From contig JACPFA010000003.1 in NCBI GenBank assembly GCA_016183235.1, positions 39,560-103,559 on the forward strand: a DNA stretch of 64,000 bases, read 5' to 3'. A model generated the notes under the pieces. The model made no database searches. It had not been told where the DNA came from and saw only the letters and a list, made by a program, of their open reading frames with translations. This DNA is from Deltaproteobacteria bacterium. Its GTDB lineage: Bacteria > UBA10199 > DSSB01 > JACPFA01. Below, piece after piece: positions 14,743-46,290 of this stretch (the first letter of the stretch is position 1; each line of letters starts with the position of its first letter). Both the position numbers and the translations under genes were made by a program.

Positions 14743-14802
14743 TTTACTTTTTTTGGCATACCCAAAAAAAAGTATTTACTTTTTTTGGCATACCCATAAA
14801 AT
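14743..14802 (+). promoter_or_regulatory. 22-bp direct repeat x2 overlapping a promoter that would give a leaderless mRNA
   Basis: TTTACTTTTTTTGGCATACCCA at 14743-14764 and 14775-14796. TAAAAT at 14797-14802, 5 nt before the ATG at 14808. Confidence 0.45.
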
Positions 14803-14807
14803 AAGAC

Positions 14808-20338: not shown

Positions 20339-20401
20339 ATGAATTGAAGAATAAAATGGAAGATTGCCACGCTCGCAAACGGTGCTCGCTCGCAATGACA
20401 T
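20339..20401 (+). repeat. B-type arm element abutting the dgt stop codon
   Basis: ATGAATTGAAGAATAAAATGGAAGATTGCCACGCT..CTCGCAATGACAT. Confidence 0.85.
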
Positions 20402-21564
20402 CAGACGCGCGATTCGGGGTTGAACAGCTTTTGATGCTCTTCTAACGCATAGCGATCGGTCATGCCAGCGATGTAATCGCAAATATGGCGAGGCAGGTCG
20501 TGAGCCTGCCCACTGTCAAAATCATCAGGCATGATTTTGGGATTTTTTAAAAAGGCCAAGAACAAATCTCGCAAAATGCGTTCGGCCTTTTCTGCCATAC
20601 GCTCGACTCGATAATGACGATAAAGTTTAGTAAAAAGAAATCGCTTCAACTCGGTGTTTTGTCGTTTGATAGGTTCGCTGTAGGCCACTAAATTTTTACC
20701 TTGCGTATAAACATCTTCTAAATTTTTGATTTTCTTTTGTTCAAGATTTTCCAAAGTGGTTTTCACCAAATCGGTCACCAATTGATTAATGATGTTGCGA
20801 ATGGTTTGAATACGAAGAATTTCTAACGTTGCCCCGGGCCTTTTTGCCGCCACTTCGTTATAAGTAGTTTGCCACAACTCCACCTCTTTTAATTGCTCTA
20901 AGCTAATTAAATTAGACCGCAGGCCATCATCTAAATCATGATTGTTATAGGCAATCTCATCACTAAAATTGGCGATCTGCGCTTCAATGGAGGGCTCGTG
21001 GGTCCGCGTAAATTCATGGCCACCGGGCAAATCGTATTCGGTAAAATGTTTGGATAAACCTTCTAGAACTTCCAACGTAAGGTTAAGGCCTAAATAGCGT
21101 GGGTCTCTTTTTTCTAAATGGGTGACAATCCGGAAAGATTGTCGGTTGTGTTCAAAGCCACCCGCATCTTTCATTAATTCGTTCATGGCCTTTTCCCCCG
21201 AATGGCCAAAGGGCGGGTGCCCCAGGTCATGGGCCAGGGCAATGGCCTCGCTTAAATCTTCATTGACCCGCAAAGTACGGGCAATCGTGCGTGAGATTTG
21301 CGCTACTTCGAGGCTGTGGGTCAATCGCGTACGGTAATGATCGCCTTCGTGGTTCACAAACACTTGGGTTTTGTATTCCAAACGACGAAAGGCCTTGCAA
21401 TGAATGATCCTATCGCGGTCCCGTTGGAAGCAGGTGCGGTAAGGATGCTCTTCTTCTTGATAACGCCTGCCCAGTGAATGTTTACTGTTGCACGCATAAG
21501 CGGCTAAGCGAGCTAATTCTTCAGCTTCAAATTCTTCTCGATCGCGCAAACCCTGATGACTCAT
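20401..21564 (-). CDS. dgt: dGTPase-like HD-domain triphosphohydrolase
   Basis: 387 aa. HSLEVAQISR..LAHDLGHPPFGH. The start overlaps the queE stop (ATGA). Confidence 0.85.
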   Translation of the reverse strand: MSHQGLRDREEFEAEELARLAAYACNSKHSLGRRYQEEEHPYRTCFQRDRDRIIHCKAFRRLEYKTQVFVNHEGDHYRTRLTHSLEVAQISRTIARTLRVNEDLSEAIALAHDLGHPPFGHSGEKAMNELMKDAGGFEHNRQSFRIVTHLEKRDPRYLGLNLTLEVLEGLSKHFTEYDLPGGHEFTRTHEPSIEAQIANFSDEIAYNNHDLDDGLRSNLISLEQLKEVELWQTTYNEVAAKRPGATLEILRIQTIRNIINQLVTDLVKTTLENLEQKKIKNLEDVYTQGKNLVAYSEPIKRQNTELKRFLFTKLYRHYRVERMAEKAERILRDLFLAFLKNPKIMPDDFDSGQAHDLPRHICDYIAGMTDRYALEEHQKLFNPESRV

Positions 21565-22852: not shown

Positions 22853-22863
22853 AATTAGATGTT

Positions 22864-22982
22864 ATTGCGAGGACCAAAGAATGGGTGACCCGGTCAGGGG
22901 GCCCCCCACCAGCGCAGAGTCCGCTTGGGGACGAGCACTGCTGGGGGAAAGACCGGGGCACCCATTCTTTGGTCCTCGCAAT
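22864..22982. repeat. C-type GC-rich core inside A-like outer stems
   Basis: ATTGCGAGGACCAAAGAATGGG..core..CCCATTCTTTGGTCCTCGCAAT. Lies between queC and the DUF366-like gene. Confidence 0.9.
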
Positions 22983-22986
22983 GGCA

Positions 22987-23646
22987 TTAGGTGTTATTCG
23001 CCATCGCTCTAAAATATCTTAAGCACGATTCACAATTGCCGCAGGACTTGGCCCCACCCTCATAGCAACTCCACAGCTCCCGAAACGGTACCCCAAGCTT
23101 CATGCCTTCTTGCACAATCTCGGTTTTACTCATCCCCAAGGTAGGGCTTACCACTTCGACATGATTAGCGGTTGAAAAATAGAGGCTTTGATTAATGGCT
23201 TCGACAAATTGGCGTGAATTGTCAGGGAAGGTAGCGGCTTCTTCAATATTAAAACCCACGATGATTTTACCAATGCCTTGGGCCTCGGCAATAAAGGCTG
23301 CCCAATTAATCATGATGCCATTGCGATTAGGTACCCACACCGCACGGGCTGATTTGACGATATGTTCGTGGCTATCCAGATGAGATGATTCTAAAGCAGG
23401 CAAATCCAGTTCGGGATTAACTAAGGCGCCGGCTAAACGTGGTTCGGGTAAAGTCATTTTTATAATTTTATGTTCGCATTCCAGTTGATTACAAATCTTT
23501 TGTGCGGCTTGAATTTCGCGCAGCGCGGCCCGTTGCCCATAATCAAAGGTGAGGGCCAAGGCAATGGGAGCACTTTGACGATAAAGGTAGGCCGCCACTG
23601 TTGAATCAAGACCACCGGAAAGTAAAATTAAGGAACGATTACTCAT
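22987..23646 (-). CDS. queC: 7-cyano-7-deazaguanine synthase
   Basis: LSGGLDST PP-loop, VPNRNG, SCYEGGAKSCGNCESC. Confidence 0.9.
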   Translation of the reverse strand: MSNRSLILLSGGLDSTVAAYLYRQSAPIALALTFDYGQRAALREIQAAQKICNQLECEHKIIKMTLPEPRLAGALVNPELDLPALESSHLDSHEHIVKSARAVWVPNRNGIMINWAAFIAEAQGIGKIIVGFNIEEAATFPDNSRQFVEAINQSLYFSTANHVEVVSPTLGMSKTEIVQEGMKLGVPFRELWSCYEGGAKSCGNCESCLRYFRAMANNT

Positions 23647-23993
23647 AGTAAGATGTCATTCAGAGTCCCTGCGTTGGGCAGGGACGATGAATCTTCCATT
23701 TCCCATTGTTCACATAGATCCTGCCACCCTCTATTTTTAACTTCAATTAACAAAATTTTTTTCTCCCTCGATTTCCCCTTGATCTGTTTTTCCCGACTTA
23801 TAGCTTCATTAATATCACCAAAATATTCCAGATAAACTAACTTGGTAAGATTATACTTTGCAGTAAAAGAACTAGGGATAGTTTTGTTTTTATGTTCATA
23901 AATGCGACGTGTAATATCGTTGGTTACACCCGTATACAAGACGGAGTGATTGATATTAGTCATAATATAAACGTAATAATTATGGTCTTTCAT
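23643..23993 (-). CDS. GIY-YIG (URI-domain) nuclease family protein, small stand-alone type
   Basis: YYVYIM..LYTGVT..RRIYEHK..REKQIKG. The last ~17 aa and the stop are encoded by the left repeat arm. Confidence 0.8.
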   Translation of the reverse strand: MKDHNYYVYIMTNINHSVLYTGVTNDITRRIYEHKNKTIPSSFTAKYNLTKLVYLEYFGDINEAISREKQIKGKSREKKILLIEVKNRGWQDLCEQWEMEDSSSLPNAGTLNDILL

Positions 23994-24034: not shown

Positions 24035-24403
24035 TTACTCATAATAACTCGCCGCACAATCGTCGGTTTCCCATACGGTAACACGGGCTACCCGCACCCC
24101 CGCACGGTTTAACTGTTTGCTCATTTCGCCAAAAATAAACTTGGCCACTTGTTCAGCGCTGGGATTTATCTTTTTAAAAAGGGCATTTTCGTTGAGGTAA
24201 GTATAATCGATTTTTTTATAAATACTTTCAGCTTCTTTTTTCACCTCGAGAAAATCAATAAGCACTTCTATGCCATCGAGTTTTTCGCCCATTATTCGTA
24301 TTTCGGTTTTCCAATTATGACCATGGAGTGGCTCCATCGAGCCGTCATAAAGTCGCAAGTTATGGGCCGCCACAAAGGGTTTGGTGATAATGACCTCAAA
24401 CAT
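24035..24403 (-). CDS. queD: COG0720 family protein in the que cluster (QueD-like but lacking the CxxxHGH cysteine)
   Basis: 122 aa. ..GSMEPLHGHNW.., ..VWETDDCAASYYE. Confidence 0.7.
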   Translation of the reverse strand: MFEVIITKPFVAAHNLRLYDGSMEPLHGHNWKTEIRIMGEKLDGIEVLIDFLEVKKEAESIYKKIDYTYLNENALFKKINPSAEQVAKFIFGEMSKQLNRAGVRVARVTVWETDDCAASYYE

Positions 24404-24457
24404 AGGCCTTAGGCGTTAACCCAGCGGCTCGTTTAAGGTCAATAGGGATCGCTGAGC

Positions 24458-24991
24458 TTACTGCTTGATTTTGTGTGGAGTAGGGTTTTCGCCGCGGGCT
24501 CGCGCTGCAGCTTTCTCTATCTTTATAGTTTCCCCTATTTGTTGTATAAATCTCGTAATACAGTCCGCCTGGGAAACTTCATTCCCACAAAGAGGGACTG
24601 GGGTCATACGATCAACCTGTGCTGCTACTACCGCTGCAGTTAAACCGACTAACAACTCGGATAAATCCCATTGGAATGCAGGGTCCCGTGATTTCATGTG
24701 TTCAAACGAAACCAAACTAGCAGCGGAGCGCCTCGACAAAAAATACTCTCTTTCTCCTAATGACTCTTCTAATTTAGCCCACTTTTCAGGATTGATAACT
24801 ATAGATCGTTGACTCAGACTCCTAATAGACTGGCGAGCCAAGTGTTCATAGTGAGCGATGGGAGGAGTTTTCGTATCTACTTTATAATCTTTTACCTGAC
24901 GATACACAGCTTTGGCCACCGTAGGCAAGCCACCGGTCAAAACTTCAACTGCCACTTTACCAACTTCACCAGCAATTTTTCCGAGTCCCAT
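24458..24991 (-). CDS. Hypothetical protein
   Basis: 177 aa. AGGAGG 4 nt upstream of the ATG. Confidence 0.55.
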   Translation of the reverse strand: MGLGKIAGEVGKVAVEVLTGGLPTVAKAVYRQVKDYKVDTKTPPIAHYEHLARQSIRSLSQRSIVINPEKWAKLEESLGEREYFLSRRSAASLVSFEHMKSRDPAFQWDLSELLVGLTAAVVAAQVDRMTPVPLCGNEVSQADCITRFIQQIGETIKIEKAAARARGENPTPHKIKQ

Positions 24992-25201
24992 AAAACCTCC
25001 TAAAATTGTTAAACCCCCATTTGGCTCTTATTATCGTCCCCATAACAATTTAGTTTCCAAAAAAATACATCTATTTTGAGTTTATTATAAATTTTTATAC
25101 ATAAAAATTAGCTAAACTTCCAATTTAATGAATATTTTCAGCGAAACCTAGACCTGGCTTTTGGCGATAATAGCTTAGAACTTTAAACTAAAGGGGGGCT
25201 G

Positions 25202-25483
25202 ATGGGTAAACCACCTAAAATTGATCAACGTTCTGAAGTAGCCGCTTGTTATTATCCTATTGCAAAGGGCGGGGCACCTGACTCACCCGACAAGGCGGCT
25301 TGTGAAGGAAAGATTAACAAGGCCGAAAAAGCCTATACTCAAAAAAATCCGGGTCACATTTGTAAAACCGAACGAACCCTTTTTACCAATAAAGCAGCCC
25401 CGAACATTATGTTAAGATTGCTTTGTGGTTTACCACCCGATCCATGGGGGATTGAACCAGTAGAACCGGAAGCCTTGCCTTAA
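25202..25483 (+). CDS. Hypothetical small Cys-containing protein
   Basis: 93 aa. AAGGGGGG Shine-Dalgarno sequence before the ATG. Confidence 0.5.
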   Translation: MGKPPKIDQRSEVAACYYPIAKGGAPDSPDKAACEGKINKAEKAYTQKNPGHICKTERTLFTNKAAPNIMLRLLCGLPPDPWGIEPVEPEALP

Positions 25484-25712
25484 CCCTTCTTCCATTTAAT
25501 AGAACAACCCATAGTAGGGAATTGTTCGGGGGAAGGTTTTTTGCCTAACAACATGGCATCGAGGGCCTCGCGTAGTTCTTGACGGGTTACTTTGGCAGGT
25601 TCTTTCCAATTGTTATCAATACGGCCAAAATATCTGGCGTGCAAACCGCCCCATAGCTACGTGCAACTGATTACGTTGCATCGACTAAATGGGGTGGGTA
25701 CCTAAAATTGAT
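25480..25712 (-). pseudogene. Relic 3' fragment of the thioredoxin-fold gene (duplicate of 27803-28030)
   Basis: 141 bp identical (25487-25627 = 27810-27950). Homology then continues in diverged form with an indel that shifts the frame. Confidence 0.85.
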
Positions 25713-25720
25713 CTTCAGTC

Positions 25721-26230
25721 TCAAAAGCCAGATGCCTGGTACAAGAGAGCTGCAAAGTCAAAATGATAAGAACTATAATAGGCTACCGTAGCAGCAGTGT
25801 ATGTAATGACCATGAGCTGCTGCCCTGCTACGTTTCTGGCGCACGTTTCCTGCCTTACCCCGTTTTTGTCTTGCATCGTGAAATTATACCAGGTCTTTTC
25901 CCTCATGGTAAATGTCTCGACTGCTGAGAGAGAGCTACCTTGGTGTTCGTAGCCAGGGTTCTTTAACACGCCTTGGCGCATGTCTTCCAAAAACTTCTTC
26001 GCGGATTTGGAAGTCGTATAGAGCTCGCCTCTAATCCACACTCGGTCGATTGCCTTATTGGCATCCATCATAAAAATATTAGACCTCCCCCCGCTTTCAT
26101 TCCAGGTCCAACCCGGCAGTAAGTTAATTTTCCCCTTGAGCTCAGCTATCGAAAATCCAAAGACTGAAGTAGTAAGCAGAATCGAGCTTGTAAAAAACAT
26201 GAGGCAAAGCAAAATATATTTTTTGAACAT
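25721..26230 (-). CDS. Hypothetical secreted protein
   Basis: Signal peptide MFKKYILLCLMFFTSSILLTTSVFG. AGGAGA Shine-Dalgarno sequence. Confidence 0.6.
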   Translation of the reverse strand: MFKKYILLCLMFFTSSILLTTSVFGFSIAELKGKINLLPGWTWNESGGRSNIFMMDANKAIDRVWIRGELYTTSKSAKKFLEDMRQGVLKNPGYEHQGSSLSAVETFTMREKTWYNFTMQDKNGVRQETCARNVAGQQLMVITYTAATVAYYSSYHFDFAALLYQASGF

Positions 26231-26362
26231 GGATTCTCCTGGTATTAACTCCACTCCTTCATATTCGGGGGGTATCCCAGATATGGACGAGAGTGAGATC
26301 GTTATTTATAAGCTAAATAAAAATGTGTCGCGCTGCCTTAATCCTCATTCTTTTCCTGTTTA

Positions 26363-27739
26363 TTACAAGGAAATGGCCTTCACCCTCTCCACCAAATAAA
26401 GTGGCCACGAAATAAGGGTAAAGGAGATTTCTTCTCCCCCATGGAAGGGACCCGTCAATTTATGTGAAACGGGTTGAATAGTGGGAAGATTTAAATCGAA
26501 CCGAAGGGTATTTTTGACCTGCTTTTGTCGCACAAATTGTTGAATTGATTTTAAGCTTCCACTTTTGCCTGCCTTTACCTCAATAGGGAGAATTTTTGAG
26601 GCAAGAGAAATGACAAAATCAAGTTCTGCATTGCCTAATTTGCTTTCTCTCAACCAATAAAAAAGTTCAGGGGCTTCTAAGCCTTTTGAACCATAAGCCA
26701 GATGCTGAGCAATAAACTGCTCTGCCAAATAACCTTCGTGCACCAGTTCTCTTAAATTGAGTTTTGAGATATCACTCCACTCCAACCCACATAAATAATT
26801 AAACAACCCAACATCTAAAAAATAGAGTTTATAAACTTTTTCATCACGCCCCACTTTCAAAGGTAAACCCGAACAATCGCTATGATAGCAAGGAAGAAGA
26901 AGTCTCGCTCTGGTTAACATTTCAATCGCCATTTTTACATCGACTGAGCGATCATCCGAAGAAAGCTTCGAGTATTTTACTTTTTGACCCACAATCTTTG
27001 GGAAAATATCAAGAATCTTTTGAAGAAGTAGATGAAATTTTTGAGAAGTATTATATTTCGAAAAATCATCTTGATAAGTTTGAAGGATAGACCGGTGTAC
27101 CGCCCGCGCTTCAAGGGGACTCAAAGTGTTTTGATAAACAGCCACGCTCTCAGGCATGCCCCCCACAAATAAAAATTCCCGTTGCCTCTCAAGCAACCGC
27201 GCATGGGCCATTTCAGGTATTTTCTCACCAAGTTGAAACCCTTGCAGGATTTTGACAAGCTGATCTTCACCTAAAGCCGATAAAAATTCACTGAAAGTTA
27301 AAGGCCCTACATGTAAATAATCAATCCTTCCCACTGGCATTGAAAAACTGTGTTTTTCCAAAATAAATTCCAGCAAAGACCCTGCGGCCACAACAGGCAA
27401 ATCCGGTTTTTCTTCATAAAAATAGCGCAAGGCAGGCAAGGCATGGGGAGTGGCCTGAATTTCATCTAAAAATAAAACCACATTGGGCAAAGCAAGCGAG
27501 AGATTGGCAAGCACCTCGAGTTCTCGCAAGATTCTGGGAATATCATTGCTTTGAAAGATAAGATCTAACCGTGGATGACGTTCGAGATTAATCTCAGCTA
27601 ATTTTAAATTCTGTTGACGGGCCCAGTTACGAACGAGGGTAGACTTCCCCACTTGCCTGGCCCCTCGTAAAACAAGCGGCTTTCTGGGCTTTTTTCGAAA
27701 CCATTCAGTAAGGGAATTTTCTAAGGTTCTTGCAATCAT
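26363..27739 (-). CDS. AAA+ ATPase with PD-(D/E)xK-like tail (COG1373 / DUF4143-like), second copy
   Basis: GARQVGKST, LFLDEIQ. C-terminal ELDFVI..LPIEVKAGKSG. Confidence 0.75.
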   Translation of the reverse strand: MIARTLENSLTEWFRKKPRKPLVLRGARQVGKSTLVRNWARQQNLKLAEINLERHPRLDLIFQSNDIPRILRELEVLANLSLALPNVVLFLDEIQATPHALPALRYFYEEKPDLPVVAAGSLLEFILEKHSFSMPVGRIDYLHVGPLTFSEFLSALGEDQLVKILQGFQLGEKIPEMAHARLLERQREFLFVGGMPESVAVYQNTLSPLEARAVHRSILQTYQDDFSKYNTSQKFHLLLQKILDIFPKIVGQKVKYSKLSSDDRSVDVKMAIEMLTRARLLLPCYHSDCSGLPLKVGRDEKVYKLYFLDVGLFNYLCGLEWSDISKLNLRELVHEGYLAEQFIAQHLAYGSKGLEAPELFYWLRESKLGNAELDFVISLASKILPIEVKAGKSGSLKSIQQFVRQKQVKNTLRFDLNLPTIQPVSHKLTGPFHGGEEISFTLISWPLYLVERVKAISL

Positions 27740-27767
27740 ATGCTAAAATATACCCTGATTTTAGCAT
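27740..27767 (-). promoter_or_regulatory. 10-bp inverted repeat and -10-like box immediately upstream of the ATPase ATG
   Basis: ATGCTAAAAT-8 nt-ATTTTAGCAT. On the coding strand TATATT lies 7 nt before the ATG (leaderless-like). Confidence 0.4.
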
Positions 27768-27802
27768 AAATTAAGATGAAATAAAGGTATTTTTTAGTAT
27801 AA

Positions 27803-28318
27803 TTAGGTTTTCTTCCATTTAATAGAACAACCCATAGTAGGGAATTGTTCGGGGGAAGGTTTTTTGCCTAACAACATGGCATCGAGGGCCTCGCGTAGTT
27901 CTTGACGGGTTACTTTGGCAGGTTCTTTCCAATTGTTATCAATACGGCCAGGGGTACAAACCGCCCCATAGCTACGGGCAACCGCTTGCGTTGCATCGAC
28001 CAAATAAGGAAACCCATAATTTTTATCGAGGGCCCGTTTTTTTAAGTTGGTGGGTTTGTCATCGGGGTAATCGGTGGGGTCATTGGCACAAATACCCACC
28101 AGTTGAACCGATTTGTCTTCGTAGTCTTTACGCAATTGAATGATGCGATCTTCGACGGCTTGCACATAGGGGCAATGCACACAAATAAACATAACCACTA
28201 AAATTTTCTTATCATCAAAACTTAAAAGATTATAAGTTTTGCCATCTAGAACGTTGGGCAAATTAAATTCAGGGGCTGGGCTACCTAGGGAAATGTTTTT
28301 TGAATTAAGCAGGACCAT
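27803..28318 (-). CDS. Thioredoxin-fold protein (AhpC/TSA-like)
   Basis: 171 aa. VMFICVHCPYV CxxC motif. Confidence 0.7.
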   Translation of the reverse strand: MVLLNSKNISLGSPAPEFNLPNVLDGKTYNLLSFDDKKILVVMFICVHCPYVQAVEDRIIQLRKDYEDKSVQLVGICANDPTDYPDDKPTNLKKRALDKNYGFPYLVDATQAVARSYGAVCTPGRIDNNWKEPAKVTRQELREALDAMLLGKKPSPEQFPTMGCSIKWKKT

Positions 28319-28338
28319 GGCAGGAAACTAACGCAAAT

Positions 28339-28468
28339 CTGGATCCCGGGTCAAGCCCGGGATGATGAGAGATGATGAAGATTGCCACACTCGGCATCAT
28401 GGGTCCCGTCCTCCGACTTGATCGGGGGATCAAGCCGGGGGATGACAGGAGCAGCTCGCAATGACATC
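28339..28468 (+). repeat. Composite B-type hairpins and arm
   Basis: CCCGGGTCAAGCCCGGG, then GAAGATTGCCACACT..GATCAAG..CTCGCAATGACAT. Translated on the opposite strand as the LipA tail. Confidence 0.85.
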
Positions 28469-29310
28469 GATAATTTACTCGCAGATACGTCGGCGTGGTA
28501 GGAACTGCGCACGAAGGTAGAGCTTGCTACTTCGGGGATGCCTATGTCTAAAGCCATTTGACGAATTTTTGCAAATTCTTGGGGGGAATAAAAACGTTCG
28601 ACCTTTAAATTTTGAGGGCCGGGTTGCAAGTATTGGCCCACTGTTAAAATAGAAATTTTCCCTTTTTGATATAAATCACATAAGGTTTGCTCGATCTCAT
28701 CAAAAGTTTCGCCTAATCCTACCATAATGCCACTCTTAGCGACCAATCCTGCTTCTGCTGCCAAGCTCAGTACTTTTAACGAACGTTCATAATGGGCCTG
28801 CGGGCGAACGTGTTTTTGCAACCGTGCGATAGTTTCAAGGTTGTGATTTAAAATATCTGGGCTGGCCGCAAACACGCGATTTAAATCTTCTCGCTGCCCT
28901 CTAAAATCAGGGATCAGCACCTCAAGCGTCATGTTAGGGCAGACCTTTTTAACTTCTTGGATGGTTTGAGCAAAGTGATGCGAACCACCATCAGGAAGGT
29001 CGTCACGATCGACGGAGGTAATCACCACATGTTGTAAATTTAATTGGGCCAAGGCTTGCGCAACATTTTGCGGTTCACAAATATCAAGGGGTTTGGGCCT
29101 GCCGGTGTTCACCGCACAAAATCCACAAGCGCGCGTGCAGGTGTCGCCCATAATCATTACGGTTGCGGTTTTGCGATCCCAACAATCCCCAATATTTGGG
29201 CACTGAGCTTCCTCGCATACGGTGTGTAAATTTAAATCGCGGAATAATTTTTTGAGGCCATGGTAATTAGCCCCTGAGGGAATTTTTGCTTTGAGCCAAG
29301 TGGGTTTCAT
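28351..29310 (-). CDS. lipA: Lipoyl synthase
   Basis: CEEAQCPNIGDCW and CTRACGFC clusters. The C-terminal ~40 aa (SMSLRAAPVIPRLDPP..) are repeat-encoded. Confidence 0.9.
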   Translation of the reverse strand: MKPTWLKAKIPSGANYHGLKKLFRDLNLHTVCEEAQCPNIGDCWDRKTATVMIMGDTCTRACGFCAVNTGRPKPLDICEPQNVAQALAQLNLQHVVITSVDRDDLPDGGSHHFAQTIQEVKKVCPNMTLEVLIPDFRGQREDLNRVFAASPDILNHNLETIARLQKHVRPQAHYERSLKVLSLAAEAGLVAKSGIMVGLGETFDEIEQTLCDLYQKGKISILTVGQYLQPGPQNLKVERFYSPQEFAKIRQMALDIGIPEVASSTFVRSSYHADVSASKLSMSLRAAPVIPRLDPPIKSEDGTHDAECGNLHHLSSSRA

Positions 29311-30614: not shown

Positions 30615-30746
30615 AGTTCATAGTCTAAGCACAGTTTTTTTTTGACGGCTAGTTCAATTGAAGCCCCATCTCCCAACCCGCTAAATTGACGGGATTGATC
30701 GTGCAAGATTGTGCAATCCTTATTAAGATATTACTATTTATTTTTT

Positions 30747-30825
30747 ACCCATAAACATACCCATATATATCCATAAATATTGACTTTGTTTGAATATATG
30801 GTTATATATGGGTGCATTTATGGGT
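30747..30825 (+). promoter_or_regulatory. Fic promoter bracketed by a 21-bp imperfect inverted repeat
   Basis: ACCCATAAACATACCCATATA (30747-30767) and TATATGGGTGCATTTATGGGT (30805-30825). TTGACT (30780-30785), 17 nt, TATATA (30803-30808). Confidence 0.45.
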
Positions 30826-31875
30826 ATTAAAAAATTTCAACCTAAGATTTCGATTACTCCTCAAATCTTAAAACTCATTACTGAAATTGATGAATTTAAG
30901 GGTCAATGGACTACCTTAAAGCAACTTTCCCCTACTCAACTTCAAAGCTTGAAGACTGTTGCCACGATTGAATCTATTGGTTCTTCAACTCGCATTGAGG
31001 GTGCAAAATTAACTGATCAAGAAATTGAAAAACTTTTAAAAGGTTTGGAAATAAAAAGTTTTCGAACAAGAGATGAAGAAGAAGTGAGGGGTTATGCCGA
31101 AGTTATTCATACCATTATTGAATCTTATGAACATATTCCATTAACCGAAAGTTATCTCAAACAACTGCATGGTATTTTACTTAAATTTAGCTCCAAGGAT
31201 GTTCGTCATCGAGGAGAATATAAAAAATTTCCTAACCATGTAGAAGCTTTTGATCAAAATGGAAAAAGTATAGGAGTTATTTTTAAAACTGTTTCTCCTT
31301 TTGAGACCCCTCAACGGATGCAAGAATTGTTCGAATGGATTAATAGAAGTTTTGAAGAAAAATTATTGCATCCACTTTTAGTTATCGCGGTTTTTATCGT
31401 TAATTTTTTAGCGATTCACCCTTTTCAAGATGGAAATGGCCGCATCTCAAGAATTCTTACGAGTTTGCTATTGCTTAAACATGGCTATCACTATGTCCCT
31501 TTTAGTTCTTTGGAACATATCATTGAAGAAAATAAAGAAAATTACTACTTAGCCTTACACAACTCTCAAAAAGAATTAGGCAATGAAAACGAAAATTTAG
31601 AAAGTTGGCTATTATTTTTTATTAATTCTTTGAAGGCACAGAAAGATGTTTTACTCAAAAAAATTGAACAAGAAAAAATCTTCTTAAAAACCCCTTTGCT
31701 CTCTCAACAAATTCTTACCCTAGTGAAAGAACATGGTCGAATAACGAATGCAGCAATTCAAAATTTTACTAATGCAAATCGAAACACCATTAAGGTCCAT
31801 TTACAAAAATTAGTTTCCGATGGAATTTTAATTCAACACGGCAAAGGCAAAGGTTCTTGGTATAGTTTAGCTTAG
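30820..31875 (+). CDS. Fic-family protein with an N-terminal inhibitory motif and a C-terminal wHTH
   Basis: HPFQDGNGRISR, STRIEG ((S/T)xxxE(G/N)). Start chosen at the ATG downstream of the -10 box. The tracked ORF starts at a TTG at 30790. Confidence 0.8.
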   Translation: MGIKKFQPKISITPQILKLITEIDEFKGQWTTLKQLSPTQLQSLKTVATIESIGSSTRIEGAKLTDQEIEKLLKGLEIKSFRTRDEEEVRGYAEVIHTIIESYEHIPLTESYLKQLHGILLKFSSKDVRHRGEYKKFPNHVEAFDQNGKSIGVIFKTVSPFETPQRMQELFEWINRSFEEKLLHPLLVIAVFIVNFLAIHPFQDGNGRISRILTSLLLLKHGYHYVPFSSLEHIIEENKENYYLALHNSQKELGNENENLESWLLFFINSLKAQKDVLLKKIEQEKIFLKTPLLSQQILTLVKEHGRITNAAIQNFTNANRNTIKVHLQKLVSDGILIQHGKGKGSWYSLA

Positions 31876-36160: not shown

Positions 36161-37612
36161 ATGATTAATCCCAATAAAAATATTTATCTTATGGGTATTT
36201 GTGGCACCGGCATGGCTTCTCTGGCTGGCATGTTGAAGACTCAAGGGCACGTCGTTAAAGGTAGTGACCAAAATGCCTACCCGCCTATGAGCACCAAGCT
36301 GAGTGAACTAGGGATTGAAATTAAAACACCTTATCAAGCAACTAACTTAAATCCACGCCCTGATTTAGTGATCATTGGCAATGCGATTTCTAAAAATCAT
36401 GTGGAGGCCGAGGCCGTTTTACAGCAAGGCATTCCTTATTTATCGATGGCGGCTTGTTTACACGACTTTTTTTTGCAAGATAAAATTTGCCTAGTGGTGG
36501 CTGGTACACATGGCAAGACCACCAGCACAAGTCTGCTCGCCTGGGTGTTAGAATATGCTGGGTTAAACCCTAGTTTTTTTGTGGGTGGTATCCCGCTCAA
36601 TTTTAAAGACAATTTTAAATTGGATACCGGAAAGTATTTTGTGATTGAAGGCGATGAATATGACACCGCCTTTTTTGATAAGGGCCCCAAATTTTTACAT
36701 TACAACCCCACGCACGTGTTGCTCACCAGCATTGAATTTGATCACGCCGATATTTACCGTGATTTGGAACATTTAAAGAGTTCGTTTGTTCAGTTGCTTG
36801 AGATAATTTCTGGCATGGGAAGTTTAGTGGCTAATTTAGATTTTCCAGCGGTGGGAGAAGTTTTGGAGAAAGTAAACTTTAAAAAAACAGTTTGTTACTC
36901 AACAAGAAAGATTGCTTCGCCATCATGGATCCCGGGGCAAGCCCGGGATGACGTGGATTACAATGACATCGTTTTTTATCCAGAAAAAATCCAAGCCACG
37001 CCAGACGGTATGTGTTTCCATCTGAATGGAGTTGAGTTTCTCTTGCCCATGTTTGGCACTCACAATGTCAGCAATGCCGTGGGAGTTGCGCTCATTGCCC
37101 ATCAGATCGGGATTGATCTAAAAACTATTGCCGACGCATTTCGAACTTTCAAAGGCATTAAACGTCGCCAAGAAATTATTGGTGAGCCCCATGGCATTAC
37201 CATCATCGATGACTTTGCCCACCACCCCACCGCCGTGCGCGAAACCATTGCGTCAATTCGAGCCCGCTTTCCTAATCGAAAAATTTGGGCCGTGTTTGAA
37301 CCACGTAGTAATTCGAGTAAGCGCGATGTGTTTCAAAAAGATTATCCAGCTGCCTTCTTAGAAGCTGATGCTGTGCTTATTCACGACGTATTCATGCCCG
37401 AAAAAGTAAAAGATGGAAAAGTTTTGAATGTGGATGAGGTCGTTGCTCAAATCAATCAACAATCTGAACACCTCAAGGCCCAACATCTTTCAGGTATTGA
37501 CACCATCGTTTCTTACATCAAAGATCATGCCAAAGCAGGGGACATATTGCTGATCATGAGTAATGGTGGTTTTGGCGGTATTCATCAACACCTCCTAAAC
37601 AGCCTGATTTGA
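36161..37612 (+). CDS. mpl: UDP-N-acetylmuramate:L-alanyl-gamma-D-glutamyl-meso-DAP ligase
   Basis: IYLMGICGTGMASLAGML, GTHGKTTSTSL. Carries an in-frame repeat at 36907-36969. Confidence 0.9.
   Translation: MINPNKNIYLMGICGTGMASLAGMLKTQGHVVKGSDQNAYPPMSTKLSELGIEIKTPYQATNLNPRPDLVIIGNAISKNHVEAEAVLQQGIPYLSMAACLHDFFLQDKICLVVAGTHGKTTSTSLLAWVLEYAGLNPSFFVGGIPLNFKDNFKLDTGKYFVIEGDEYDTAFFDKGPKFLHYNPTHVLLTSIEFDHADIYRDLEHLKSSFVQLLEIISGMGSLVANLDFPAVGEVLEKVNFKKTVCYSTRKIASPSWIPGQARDDVDYNDIVFYPEKIQATPDGMCFHLNGVEFLLPMFGTHNVSNAVGVALIAHQIGIDLKTIADAFRTFKGIKRRQEIIGEPHGITIIDDFAHHPTAVRETIASIRARFPNRKIWAVFEPRSNSSKRDVFQKDYPAAFLEADAVLIHDVFMPEKVKDGKVLNVDEVVAQINQQSEHLKAQHLSGIDTIVSYIKDHAKAGDILLIMSNGGFGGIHQHLLNSLI
36907..36969 (+). 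repeat. B-type arm element, 63 bp, in frame inside mpl
   Basis: AAAGATTGCTTCGCCATCATGGATCCCGGGGCAAGCCCGGGATGACGTGGATTACAATGACAT, translated KIASPSWIPGQARDDVDYNDI. Confidence 0.85.
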
Positions 37613-45417: not shown

Positions 45418-46253
45418 ATGCACTTGGGATGTCTGCCGAACAAATTGCGGCAAAAAGCCAATCTAATTTTATAAGTTCGTTTTGGATTTTATCTAAAAAA
45501 CGTCGCCAGGCCTTAACCACATTTTACGCCTTTAGCCGCGTGGTGGATGATGCGGTCGATGAACACTCAAGCGAAATAGCCACAAAACTTATTGCCCAGT
45601 GGCAACAACAAATCAACCTTTGTTATCATGGTTGGCCCACTCAACCCTTAGCGAGTGAATTGCAAAAAATAATTCGTGAATATGAAATCCCTAAAAAATA
45701 TTTTGATGGGATTTTGCAAGGTGTGGCCATGGATATTCACCCGCAAAATTATTCTGATATCTCAAGCTTAGAAAATTACTGCTACCATGTGGCTAGCCTA
45801 GTTGGCTTGGTTTGTATGAAAATTTTTGGAGTCAACGGCCCGGCGGCTGAAACAGCCGCCACCGAATTGGGCTTGGCTTTACAATTCACCAATATTTTAA
45901 GGGATATTGCAGTGGATGCTAAAAAAGGGCGTTTGTATTTACCGCTAGAACTTTTGCAACAATTTGATTTAAGCCCTGATGCCATTCAAACGGGTGTACC
46001 TCGAGAAAAGGTTGTTTTGTGTTTAACCCATTTTGCTAACCTTGCGGAACAGCACTATACAGAGGCCTTTTCACTTATGCAAAATTTGCCTAAAAAACCC
46101 TTACAAGCGGCATGGGTGATGGGAAAGATTTATCATCAAATTTTAAATAAAATACGCCGGAAGAATTATGATGTTTACCAGGGAAAGATCACGTTATCTA
46201 AATTTAGGAAATTTTTTATTTTGCTTAAAGGAATCCTGGATCCCGGGTCTTAG
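45414..46253 (+). CDS. hpnD: Presqualene diphosphate synthase HpnD
   Basis: FYAFSRVVDDAVDE. The stop codon lies inside the hairpin repeat at 46236. Confidence 0.8.
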   Translation: MNALGMSAEQIAAKSQSNFISSFWILSKKRRQALTTFYAFSRVVDDAVDEHSSEIATKLIAQWQQQINLCYHGWPTQPLASELQKIIREYEIPKKYFDGILQGVAMDIHPQNYSDISSLENYCYHVASLVGLVCMKIFGVNGPAAETAATELGLALQFTNILRDIAVDAKKGRLYLPLELLQQFDLSPDAIQTGVPREKVVLCLTHFANLAEQHYTEAFSLMQNLPKKPLQAAWVMGKIYHQILNKIRRKNYDVYQGKITLSKFRKFFILLKGILDPGS

Positions 46254-46290
46254 CCCGGGATGACGTGCAGCCGTCATTCCGGCCCCCTGA
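46236..46290. repeat. Two B-like GC hairpins
   Basis: CCCGGGTCTTAGCCCGGG and TTCCGGCCCCCTGAGCCGGAA. Confidence 0.8.

What the first reader, a model, noticed from the sequence alone, without database searches (positions are those of the whole stretch)
25480..27950. 2.3-kb islet (secreted orphan plus DUF4143-like ATPase) bracketed by 141-bp perfect direct repeats from the 3' end of a thioredoxin-fold gene
Seen in sequence:
- 25487-25627 is identical to 27810-27950 (141 of 141).
- The right copy is the 3' end of the intact gene 27803-28318.
- The left copy is a relic that keeps a stop codon (25480-25482). It continues as diverged, frameshifted homology to about 25712 and lacks the 5' half of the gene.
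- Between the two copies lie only two genes: a signal-peptide orphan (25721-26230) and the second AAA+/PD-(D/E)xK ATPase with its own leaderless-type promoter.

Established knowledge: integrative elements that target the 3' end of a gene carry a replacement 3' end and leave this attL/attR-like arrangement.

Inference: the ATPase module entered, or can excise, by recombination between these repeats. No integrase is present, so mobilisation would be in trans or by homologous recombination. A local tandem duplication followed by decay is the alternative.
Basis: partly seen in the sequence, partly recalled or inferred. Interest (0 to 1): 0.65.

Follow-up and report, generated by a model that had tools for sequence, protein, structure and literature searches.

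The report
Recombination scar at a variable gene slot
A direct repeat made from the tail of a thioredoxin-fold gene is real, but it marks where two strain variants of a swappable gene slot were stitched together, not the ends of a self-mobile element, and its exact 141-bp form is an assembly error.

Summary
The 141/141 identity is present in the window. Contigs built from the reads of at least seven public groundwater runs disagree with the window at the inner end of both copies. They carry 34 and 42 extra bases there. The true repeat is therefore 185 bp, at twice the flanking depth. The intact gene then encodes 185 aa, like its listed homologues, and the relic is in frame with one stop codon.

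Relatives about 10% diverged revise the interpretation. In one haplotype (L177/L178, L176, L096) the orphan lies directly beside queD. Only the last 14 ATPase codons survive next to it, a PIN/VapB-like pair fills the ATPase slot, and a single Trx gene ends in KKG like the relic. In L091 the order is ATPase-Trx(KKT)-lipA.

So the enclosed genes are residents of this locus. The strain-specific DNA is window 24408-25706: two unknown ORFs plus the relic. The orphan and ATPase are 98-100% identical between strains whose flanking core genes are 89-94% identical, which indicates recent recombinational exchange. The ATPase belongs to PDC-S01, an untested candidate defence family.

Best reading: an additive, one-ended recombination between alternative haplotypes, followed by gene conversion. 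No integrase is present and no true empty site was found. Interest is modest.

The parts
25487..25637 (-). Left copy of the direct repeat. It is 185 nt in reads; the window lacks 34 nt after 25627.
   Evidence: L087 and L179 carry the full copy.
27810..27952 (-). Right copy of the direct repeat. It is 185 nt in reads; the window lacks 42 nt (14 codons) after 27950. It forms the 3' end of the intact Trx-fold gene.
   Evidence: A 185-nt unitig sits at twice the flanking depth in X1 and X3.
25480..25706 (-). Relic of a Trx-fold gene covering codons 104-185. It ends KKG* and carries Q110*. It is identical to the intact gene over 185 nt, then shows 7-8 differences in 55 nt. Homology fades by about 25694. 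The joint to the orphan's downstream DNA lies at 25706/25707.
24408..25706 (.). Strain-specific segment holding a 177-aa ORF (24458-24991, minus strand), a 93-aa ORF (25202-25483, plus strand) and the relic. In relatives L177, L178 and L176 a 72-nt queD-orphan spacer takes its place.
   Evidence: The two proteins occur only in runs of the same study. No Pfam, NCBIfam or PADLOC hit, and the 177-aa ORF has no phage or plasmid hit.
25721..26230 (-). 169-aa protein with an N-terminal signal-like hydrophobic stretch. It is syntenic next to queD in relatives and is 98.2% identical at the nucleotide level to haplotype H3.
   Evidence: It has 13 remote relatives. The structure model was unusable.
26363..27739 (-). 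AAA_14 plus DUF4143 (PD-(D/E)xK) ATPase. It is a member of PADLOC candidate defence family PDC-S01.
   Evidence: It is 97-100% identical to L091 over its 5' half.
26408..27809 (.). Exchangeable cassette: the ATPase minus its last 14 codons, its upstream region, and the last two Trx codons with the stop. In haplotype H3 it is replaced by at least 0.68 kb carrying a PIN/VapB-like pair.
26353..26407 (-). 3' end of the ATPase gene (WPLYLVERVKAISL*). It survives as a non-coding remnant in the ATPase-free haplotype.
27803..28318 (-). Intact thioredoxin-fold (AhpC/TSA-Redoxin) gene with a CVHCPY motif. It is 171 aa as written in the window and 185 aa in reads. It ends KKT*.

Best explanation
The stretch between queD and the thioredoxin-fold (Trx) gene is a strain-variable slot for accessory genes. 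Its contents are exchanged between related groundwater strains by homologous recombination anchored in the conserved flanking genes, including the Trx 3' end.

The ancestral layout of the clade is queD, orphan, PDC-S01 ATPase, Trx, lipA. In the window's strain one exchange was additive instead of replacing. A fragment from a strain with a different slot content (177-aa ORF, 93-aa ORF, then the 3' 250 nt of its own Trx allele ending KKG*) was joined homologously on the queD side. Its other end was joined illegitimately just downstream of the orphan, at 25706/25707.

This left a second, partial Trx copy. Gene conversion then made the outer 185 nt of the two copies identical.

Shown:
- the 185-nt repeat;
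- the haplotypes;
- the remnant of the ATPase in the ATPase-free haplotype;
- the mosaic pattern of identity.

Inferred:
- the direction and the one-ended mechanism of the additive event;
- the gene conversion;
- that the repeats now allow RecA-dependent loss of the orphan and ATPase as a 2.36-kb circle, which would restore a Trx gene ending KKG*.

The ATPase is probably a defence-type accessory gene. Its function is untested.
For: - The repeat is real, 185 nt long and present twice.
- Haplotype H3 (L177/L178 plus L176 plus L096, which overlap at 99.8-99.9%) reads queD, 72 nt, orphan, 14-codon ATPase remnant, PIN/VapB-like pair, Trx(KKG*), lipA. It has no relic and no 177-aa or 93-aa ORF.
- L091 reads ATPase, Trx(KKT*), lipA on a single k141 contig.
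- Window against H3: orphan block 98.2% identical. Flanks: queE 91.8, queC 89.0, queD 94.1, Trx 91, lipA-E2 90.5, E1 89.5-92.
- Window against L091: 2 differences in 479 nt of the ATPase 5' part, against 51 in 551 nt of Trx.
- The relic shares the KKG end and Ser111 with H3-type alleles. Its inner 55 nt are as far from every allele (5 to 8 differences) as those alleles are from each other. Within the 185 nt the two window copies differ at 0 positions, while L091 and L096 differ from them at 18 and 16.
- A contig from soil run X5 joins the H3-type flank and KKG end to an L091-type repeat body. This shows that crossovers within the Trx 3' end recur.
- The nearest ATPase homologues outside the clade (70-71% identity) sit in unrelated contexts without flanking repeats. 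The family also occurs on plasmids.
- PADLOC PDC-S01 hit, E = 1.5e-143.
Against: - The donor haplotype, with the 93-aa ORF convergent on an intact Trx(KKG), was not found in any collection.
- The left part of the L091-type genome was not recovered. Whether it has a relic is unknown.
- The mirror-image event fits the same structure: orphan plus ATPase plus a Trx 3' fragment entering a strain that held the 177-aa and 93-aa ORFs.
- Contigs built with k = 31 cannot link the flanks across a 185-nt repeat. The linear order A-R-C...B-R-D rests on the window assembly, which is faulty exactly at these places. It also rests on equal depths and on L091 for the right junction.
- Gene conversion is inferred from the pattern only.
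Confidence: 0.55

Rival explanations
1. This is the mirror-image additive event. A DNA fragment holding the orphan, the ATPase and a Trx 3' part (KKT*) came from another strain. It circularised and integrated by a single homologous crossover in the Trx 3' end of a recipient whose slot held the 177-aa and 93-aa ORFs. That would produce the flanking repeats.
For: - The orphan and ATPase block is 98-100% identical to other strains while both flanks are about 90% identical.
- The KKT* end is contiguous with the ATPase in the window and in L091, while the relic keeps KKG*.
- A single crossover with a circle yields exactly this duplication (established knowledge: Campbell-type integration).
Against: - The orphan-beside-queD layout and the ATPase remnant in H3 show that the block's position is ancestral in the clade.
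- The required recipient haplotype was not found.
- The inner part of the relic is not the L091 allele (5 differences in 55 nt), although the ATPase is 99.6% L091-like.
Confidence: 0.22
2. This is a local duplication of the Trx 3' region within one lineage. It was followed by decay of the inner part and by gene conversion of the outer 185 nt. No foreign DNA was involved.
For: - The repeats lie in direct orientation 2.3 kb apart.
- The abrupt step from 100% to 87% identity requires conversion in any model.
Against: - The relic carries KKG and Ser111 like other strains' alleles and is farther from its own intact gene than from L091 or L096.
- It lies at the edge of a 1.3-kb segment that relatives lack.
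- A tandem duplication would also have copied the intervening genes.
Confidence: 0.1
3. This is a site-specific integrative element whose integrase acts in trans or has been lost. The repeats would be attL and attR.
For: Direct repeats made from the 3' end of a target gene, with the gene kept intact, are the classic signature of such elements (established knowledge).
Against: - No recombinase lies in or next to the block.
- The identity runs 185 nt and continues into diverged homology, unlike a short att core.
- The enclosed genes are syntenic in relatives.
- ATPase homologues elsewhere have no such repeats.
Confidence: 0.05
4. The tandem arrangement is an assembly construct. The real population would hold a chromosome with the 93-aa ORF, Trx and lipA, plus a separate circular or tandem molecule carrying the repeat, the relic's inner part, the orphan and the ATPase.
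For: - The k = 31 contig graph is a loop that fits both layouts.
- The window is demonstrably mis-assembled at both inner ends of the repeat.
Against: - The depth ratio of block to flanks stays roughly between 0.7 and 1.3 in four samples.
- There is no replication gene in the block.
- L091 shows ATPase, Trx and lipA contiguous, and H3 shows the orphan on the chromosome.
- There is no alternative branch at the relic/orphan joint.
Confidence: 0.06

Closest known systems
[quoted passage not shown] Examples are homology-facilitated illegitimate recombination, as proposed for Vibrio cholerae T6SS effector-immunity arrays (PMC5361080), and Rhs C-terminal displacement.
   Same: - A conserved gene serves as the anchor.
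- The incoming module is added rather than swapped.
- Orphaned 3' fragments of the conserved or variable gene are left behind.
- Ordinary replacement events at the same locus are more common than additive ones.
   Different: - The anchor here is a housekeeping-type redox gene, and queD, not a toxin gene.
- The cargo is unknown ORFs and a candidate defence ATPase.
- The mechanism here is inferred from sequence alone.
Genomic islands, ICEs and prophages that integrate into the 3' end of a gene and supply a replacement 3' end (attL/attR).
   Same: - Direct repeats derive from the gene's 3' end.
- The gene stays intact, with a new last codon supplied from the cargo side.
   Different: - No integrase.
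- The repeat is 185 nt of identity plus diverged homology, not a short core.
- The enclosed genes are syntenic residents.
- No matching empty site was found.
Defence or accessory-gene hotspots flanked by core genes, where different systems occupy the same slot in different strains (own knowledge of the defence-island literature). PDC-S01 is described in PMC12988326.
   Same: - The same slot holds a PDC-S01 ATPase in two haplotypes and a PIN/VapB-like pair in a third.
- The cargo is far more similar between strains than the core flanks are.
   Different: - The slot is very small, holding one or two genes.
- The defence role of PDC-S01 is unvalidated.
- The slot boundaries lie inside the last codons of the flanking ORFs.
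Concerted evolution of direct repeats by gene conversion, and RecA-dependent pop-out between them.
   Same: The two copies are 100% identical over 185 nt while orthologues differ at 16-18 positions. Identity falls abruptly to 87% beyond that stretch.
   Different: Conversion and deletion were not observed directly.

Membership tests
Site-specific integrative element (genomic island, IME or prophage remnant) | Integrase or recombinase gene within or beside the element | tested here: not met
   The ORFs between the repeats are only the orphan and the AAA_14/DUF4143 ATPase. Pfam and NCBIfam show no recombinase in 24400-28400.
Site-specific integrative element (genomic island, IME or prophage remnant) | Direct repeats at both ends that duplicate the target's 3' end | tested here: met
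   A 185-nt perfect repeat, with the right copy inside the intact gene.
Site-specific integrative element (genomic island, IME or prophage remnant) | Empty site in relatives: one copy of the repeat, with both outer flanks contiguous | tested here: not met
   Relatives with a single Trx copy (L176, L096) keep the orphan and a 14-codon ATPase remnant. They have a different outer flank (PIN/VapB-like). The 93-aa ORF flank was never found next to an intact Trx gene.
Site-specific integrative element (genomic island, IME or prophage remnant) | Excised circle or deletion junctions in the population | not testable with these tools
   Only k = 31 contigs are held for these runs. A 185-nt repeat cannot be bridged with them.
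PDC-S01 (PADLOC candidate single-gene defence system; COG1373) | Match to the PDC-S01 profile, with an AAA_14 ATPase fused to a DUF4143 PD-(D/E)xK domain | tested here: met
   PDLC04788 E = 1.5e-143 over residues 1-455. Pfam AAA_14 E = 1.1e-23 and DUF4143 E = 2e-25. DUF4143 is listed in the PD-(D/E)XK superfamily (PMC3424549).
PDC-S01 (PADLOC candidate single-gene defence system; COG1373) | Protection against phage | not testable with these tools
   The literature describes most PDCs, including S01, as awaiting validation (PMC12988326).
AhpC/TSA-Redoxin thioredoxin-fold proteins | Pfam domain match and CxxC motif | tested here: met
   PF00578 E = 2.5e-17 and PF08534 E = 8.7e-15. The motif CVHC is present. 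The full 185-aa form was recovered from reads.
Additive one-ended (homology-facilitated illegitimate) recombination product | Homology to the alternative haplotype ends abruptly at one border inside a conserved gene fragment, and continues through a conserved anchor at the other | tested here: inconclusive
   The right border at 25706/25707 lies at the end of the Trx fragment, with only short possible microhomology. The left border lies at the queD start codon. The donor haplotype was not found.
VapBC-type toxin-antitoxin (the cassette in haplotype H3) | PIN-domain toxin with an upstream small antitoxin | tested here: inconclusive
   The two halves of the ORF are split by a scaffold gap. They hit the PIN profile at positions 1-51 and 89-119 with E = 0.047 and 0.029. 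VapB_antitoxin scores E = 0.062. All are below threshold.

The most novel reading that the evidence does not exclude
The 185-bp repeats would make the orphan and PDC-S01 block an integrase-free cassette that excises as a circle by host homologous recombination. It would re-enter other strains at the conserved Trx 3' end. That would explain its 98-100% identity across lineages that are 10% diverged. It would be a RecA-driven way of circulating a defence gene.
Probability: 0.1. Interest if true: 0.6.

Novelty: new member of a known kind. Interest (0 to 1): 0.3.

Why it matters
The locus gives a clean natural example of how small accessory and candidate defence genes are exchanged between closely related uncultured groundwater strains. 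The exchange uses the last codons of conserved genes as recombination anchors. It also shows how an occasional additive event leaves a gene-tail repeat that mimics the att sites of an integrative element.

There is a practical warning too. The public assembly is wrong at exactly this place: it lacks 14 conserved codons of the Trx-fold gene. The suspiciously round 141-bp repeat length equals a common assembler k-mer size.

Tried and rejected
- The genome-contig scan with the Trx protein gave best relatives at 64-67% identity with no synteny, so it was useless for an empty site. Trx homologues at 73-75% identity sit in another context (enoyl-CoA hydratase, peptidase M17, PHP), so they are also uninformative.
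- I looked for older Trx relics further left by relaxed tblastn and found none.
- I looked for flanking repeats around the closest ATPase homologues (L083, L084, L086) and around the window's first ATPase. There were none, so gene-tail duplication is not a property of the ATPase family.
- The 177-aa ORF had no hit in the phage or plasmid collections.
- The structure prediction of the orphan was too poor to use (pLDDT 46.6), so I ran no fold search.
- Remote relatives of the orphan gave no functional clue.
- I could not derive the exact assembler mechanism that produced the 34-nt and 42-nt omissions. A simple 'trim k = 141' model predicts 44 nt for both.
- The taxonomy of the organism was not established.
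Full report
OBSERVATION

The window holds the 141/141 identity (25487-25627 = 27810-27950). Further left-right homology of 55 nt at 87% follows an apparent 8-nt indel.
- an AhpC/TSA-Redoxin gene at 27803-28318 (minus strand);
- an AAA_14 plus DUF4143 ATPase at 26363-27739 (minus strand);
- a 169-aa protein with no Pfam hit at 25721-26230 (minus strand);
- a 93-aa ORF at 25202-25483 (plus strand) that is convergent on the relic.

THE WINDOW IS WRONG AT THE INNER END OF BOTH COPIES

Four groundwater runs hold 93-98% of the region's sampled words. Their contigs never support the window's junctions 25627|25628 and 27950|27951. After the 141 nt they carry TGGTAGGCAAGCTTACGATCGGGGCCATAAACAT on the left. 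On the right they carry the same 34 nt plus AAATATCT.

With these bases restored:
- The perfect repeat is 185 nt. It appears as its own 185-nt unitig at about twice the flanking depth: X1 40.8 against 22.6 and 25.2; X3 10.2 against 6.9 and 6.1.
- The Trx-fold protein becomes 185 aa and regains 14 codons. Relatives have these codons too, and nearly all 120 listed homologues are 183-187 aa.
- The relic becomes an in-frame copy of codons 104-184 with one stop codon.

The window's junction words are missing from indexed public runs. The retained length of 141 equals MEGAHIT's default largest k (own knowledge). I therefore read the 34-nt and 42-nt omissions as assembly artefacts, with confidence about 0.85. 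The repeat itself is real and is longer than reported.

WHAT THE GENES ARE

The ATPase matches the PADLOC candidate defence family PDC-S01 with E = 1.5e-143. The window's other AAA_14/DUF4143 gene at 14808-16046 matches it too. PDC-S01 is an ATPase fused to a PD-(D/E)xK domain. It is very common in prokaryotes and has not been validated experimentally (PMC12988326; DUF4143 is listed in PMC3424549).

The nearest ATPase homologues outside this clade are 70-71% identical. They sit as solitary genes in unrelated contexts without flanking repeats, and the family also occurs on plasmids.

The orphan has no close relative outside its own cluster. It has 13 remote relatives of about 170 aa. The single-sequence structure model was unusable.

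RELATIVES

The species-representative genome collection gave only Trx homologues at 67% identity or less, with no synteny. The large protein collection and the metagenome scan gave three informative haplotypes from strains about 10% diverged.

- H2 is L091, an ENA k141 contig. It reads lipA, Trx, ATPase and is 91% identical overall. Its Trx ends KKT* as in the window.
- H3 combines L177/L178, the 31.7-kb scaffold L176 and JGI contig L096, which overlap at 99.8-99.9%. It reads queE, DUF366, queC, queD, a 72-nt spacer, the orphan, a non-coding remnant of the last 14 ATPase codons (WPLYLVERVKAISL*), a PIN/VapB-like pair with sub-threshold Pfam hits, Trx ending KKG*, lipA and E2.
- H3 has no ATPase body, no relic and no 177-aa or 93-aa ORF.

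Relative to H3, the DNA unique to the window's strain is 24408-25706: the 177-aa ORF, the 93-aa ORF and the relic. It replaces the 72-nt spacer. The two ORFs occur only in runs of the source study.

MOSAIC IDENTITY

Window against H3:
- The orphan block is 98.2% identical (11 differences in 603 nt).
- The flanks are lower: queE 91.8, queC 89.0, queD 94.1, Trx 91, lipA-E2 90.5 and E1 89.5-92%.
- Fisher p = 6e-11.

Window against L091:
- Two differences in the 479 nt at the ATPase 5' end, and 13 in the next 258 nt.
- Ten differences in the 70-nt upstream spacer.
- 51 differences in 551 nt of Trx.
- Fisher p = 6e-9.

The orphan and ATPase block has therefore been exchanged recently between lineages whose core genes are about 10% apart. 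Yet its position is ancestral, because H3 keeps the orphan and the ATPase remnant.

A contig from soil run X5 combines the H3-type flank and KKG end with an L091-type repeat body. Crossovers within the Trx 3' end therefore recur.

THE RELIC

Within the 185 nt the two window copies are identical, while L091 and L096 differ from them at 18 and 16 positions. In the next 55 nt the relic differs from its own intact gene at 8 positions, from L091 at 5 and from L096 at 5. L091 and L096 differ from each other at 4.

The relic shares the KKG end and Ser111 with H3-type alleles. The relic is therefore an allele about as old as the strain splits, or a foreign allele. Its outer 185 nt have been homogenised with the resident gene. 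Uniform 13% divergence would give a 185-nt run without a mismatch with probability of about 1e-11 (my own arithmetic).

MECHANISM

My best explanation (confidence 0.55) is as follows.
- The slot between queD and Trx is exchanged by homologous recombination anchored in the flanking genes.
- In this strain one event was additive. A fragment from a strain with a different slot content, ending inside its Trx gene, was anchored on the queD side. It was joined illegitimately at 25706/25707, just downstream of the orphan.
- Gene conversion followed.
- This resembles homology-facilitated illegitimate recombination and the 'sequential displacement' model for T6SS modules (PMC5361080).

The mirror-image event has confidence 0.22. 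In it, a circularised fragment carrying the orphan, the ATPase and a Trx tail integrates into a strain with the other slot content. It yields the same structure and cannot be excluded, because the hypothetical partner haplotype was not found.

Three readings are less likely, for reasons given under the rival explanations:
- an in-situ duplication;
- a true att-site element;
- an assembly loop, meaning an empty site plus a free circle.

In every reading, the repeats now form a substrate for RecA-dependent loss of the 2.36-kb block, which would restore a Trx gene ending KKG*. This could not be tested, because only k = 31 contigs are held for these runs. The depth of the block relative to its flanks is roughly 0.7 to 1.3 in four samples. 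No alternative branch exists at the relic/orphan joint. Any islet-free subpopulation is therefore minor.

VERDICT

The repeat is a recombination seam and the block is exchanged between strains. But it is not an integrative element, the enclosed genes are syntenic residents, and the strain-specific DNA lies outside the repeats.

This is a new example of known processes: hotspot cassette exchange, additive recombination and concerted evolution. Interest is modest at 0.3.

Noticed in passing
window 27803-28318 and 25627/25628: The window sequence omits 42 nt (14 conserved codons, TPDIYVYGPDRKLA...) from the Trx-fold gene and 34 nt from the relic, compared with contigs from the public runs. Anyone annotating this assembly would call a defective 171-aa protein.
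   Followed up: yes
window 23643-23993: A small GIY-YIG nuclease gene lies between queC and queD. It is absent from the close relative L177/L178, where queC and queD are adjacent. This is another strain-specific insertion.
   Followed up: partly
window 30616-31867 (Fic gene 30790-31875): A low-GC (about 32%) Fic plus HTH gene lies between the E2 and E1-beta genes. In relative L176 an RCC1-repeat gene takes its place. This is a second swappable slot in the same operon neighbourhood.
   Followed up: partly
window 28340-28470; fragments near 20359-20402, 36926-36951 and 46236-46263: A short G+C-rich repeat element lies in the lipA-Trx spacer. Its depth is 100-180x against about 20x for the flanks in all runs. 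It looks like a dispersed REP- or MITE-like element shared across the genome and the community.
   Followed up: no
window 24999, 25214, 25701: CCTAAAATTG occurs three times in 64 kb, all within 700 bp and all on the plus strand (0.5 expected). The third copy straddles the relic/orphan joint. The second lies in the first codons of the 93-aa ORF, and 25213-25237 is 80% similar to 25700-25724. Unexplained.
   Followed up: partly
window 14743-14806 and 27740-27767: Both PDC-S01-type ATPase genes have palindromic sequences abutting their start codons. One is two tandem 32-nt palindromic units. The other is a 10-nt inverted repeat, ATGCTAAAAT-N8-ATTTTAGCAT. They may be operators. The second is not conserved in L091.
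   Followed up: no
window 25487-25528 (= 27810-27851): These 42 nt encode the conserved C-terminal motif of the Trx protein. In runs X5-X9 they occur at 77-194x depth within GC-rich flanks, so they belong to an abundant unrelated organism. The nucleotide conservation is striking.
   Followed up: no
window 22853-22986: A 134-nt spacer lies between the DUF366 gene and queC. It is absent from relative L177, where the two genes abut.
   Followed up: no
L176 (window-orientation positions 682-1359) and L096 1-457: The ATPase-free haplotype carries a PIN-like toxin and a small VapB-like ORF in the slot. A more distant Trx homologue (L094/L095) also has a VapB/PIN pair next to it, on the other side.
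   Followed up: partly
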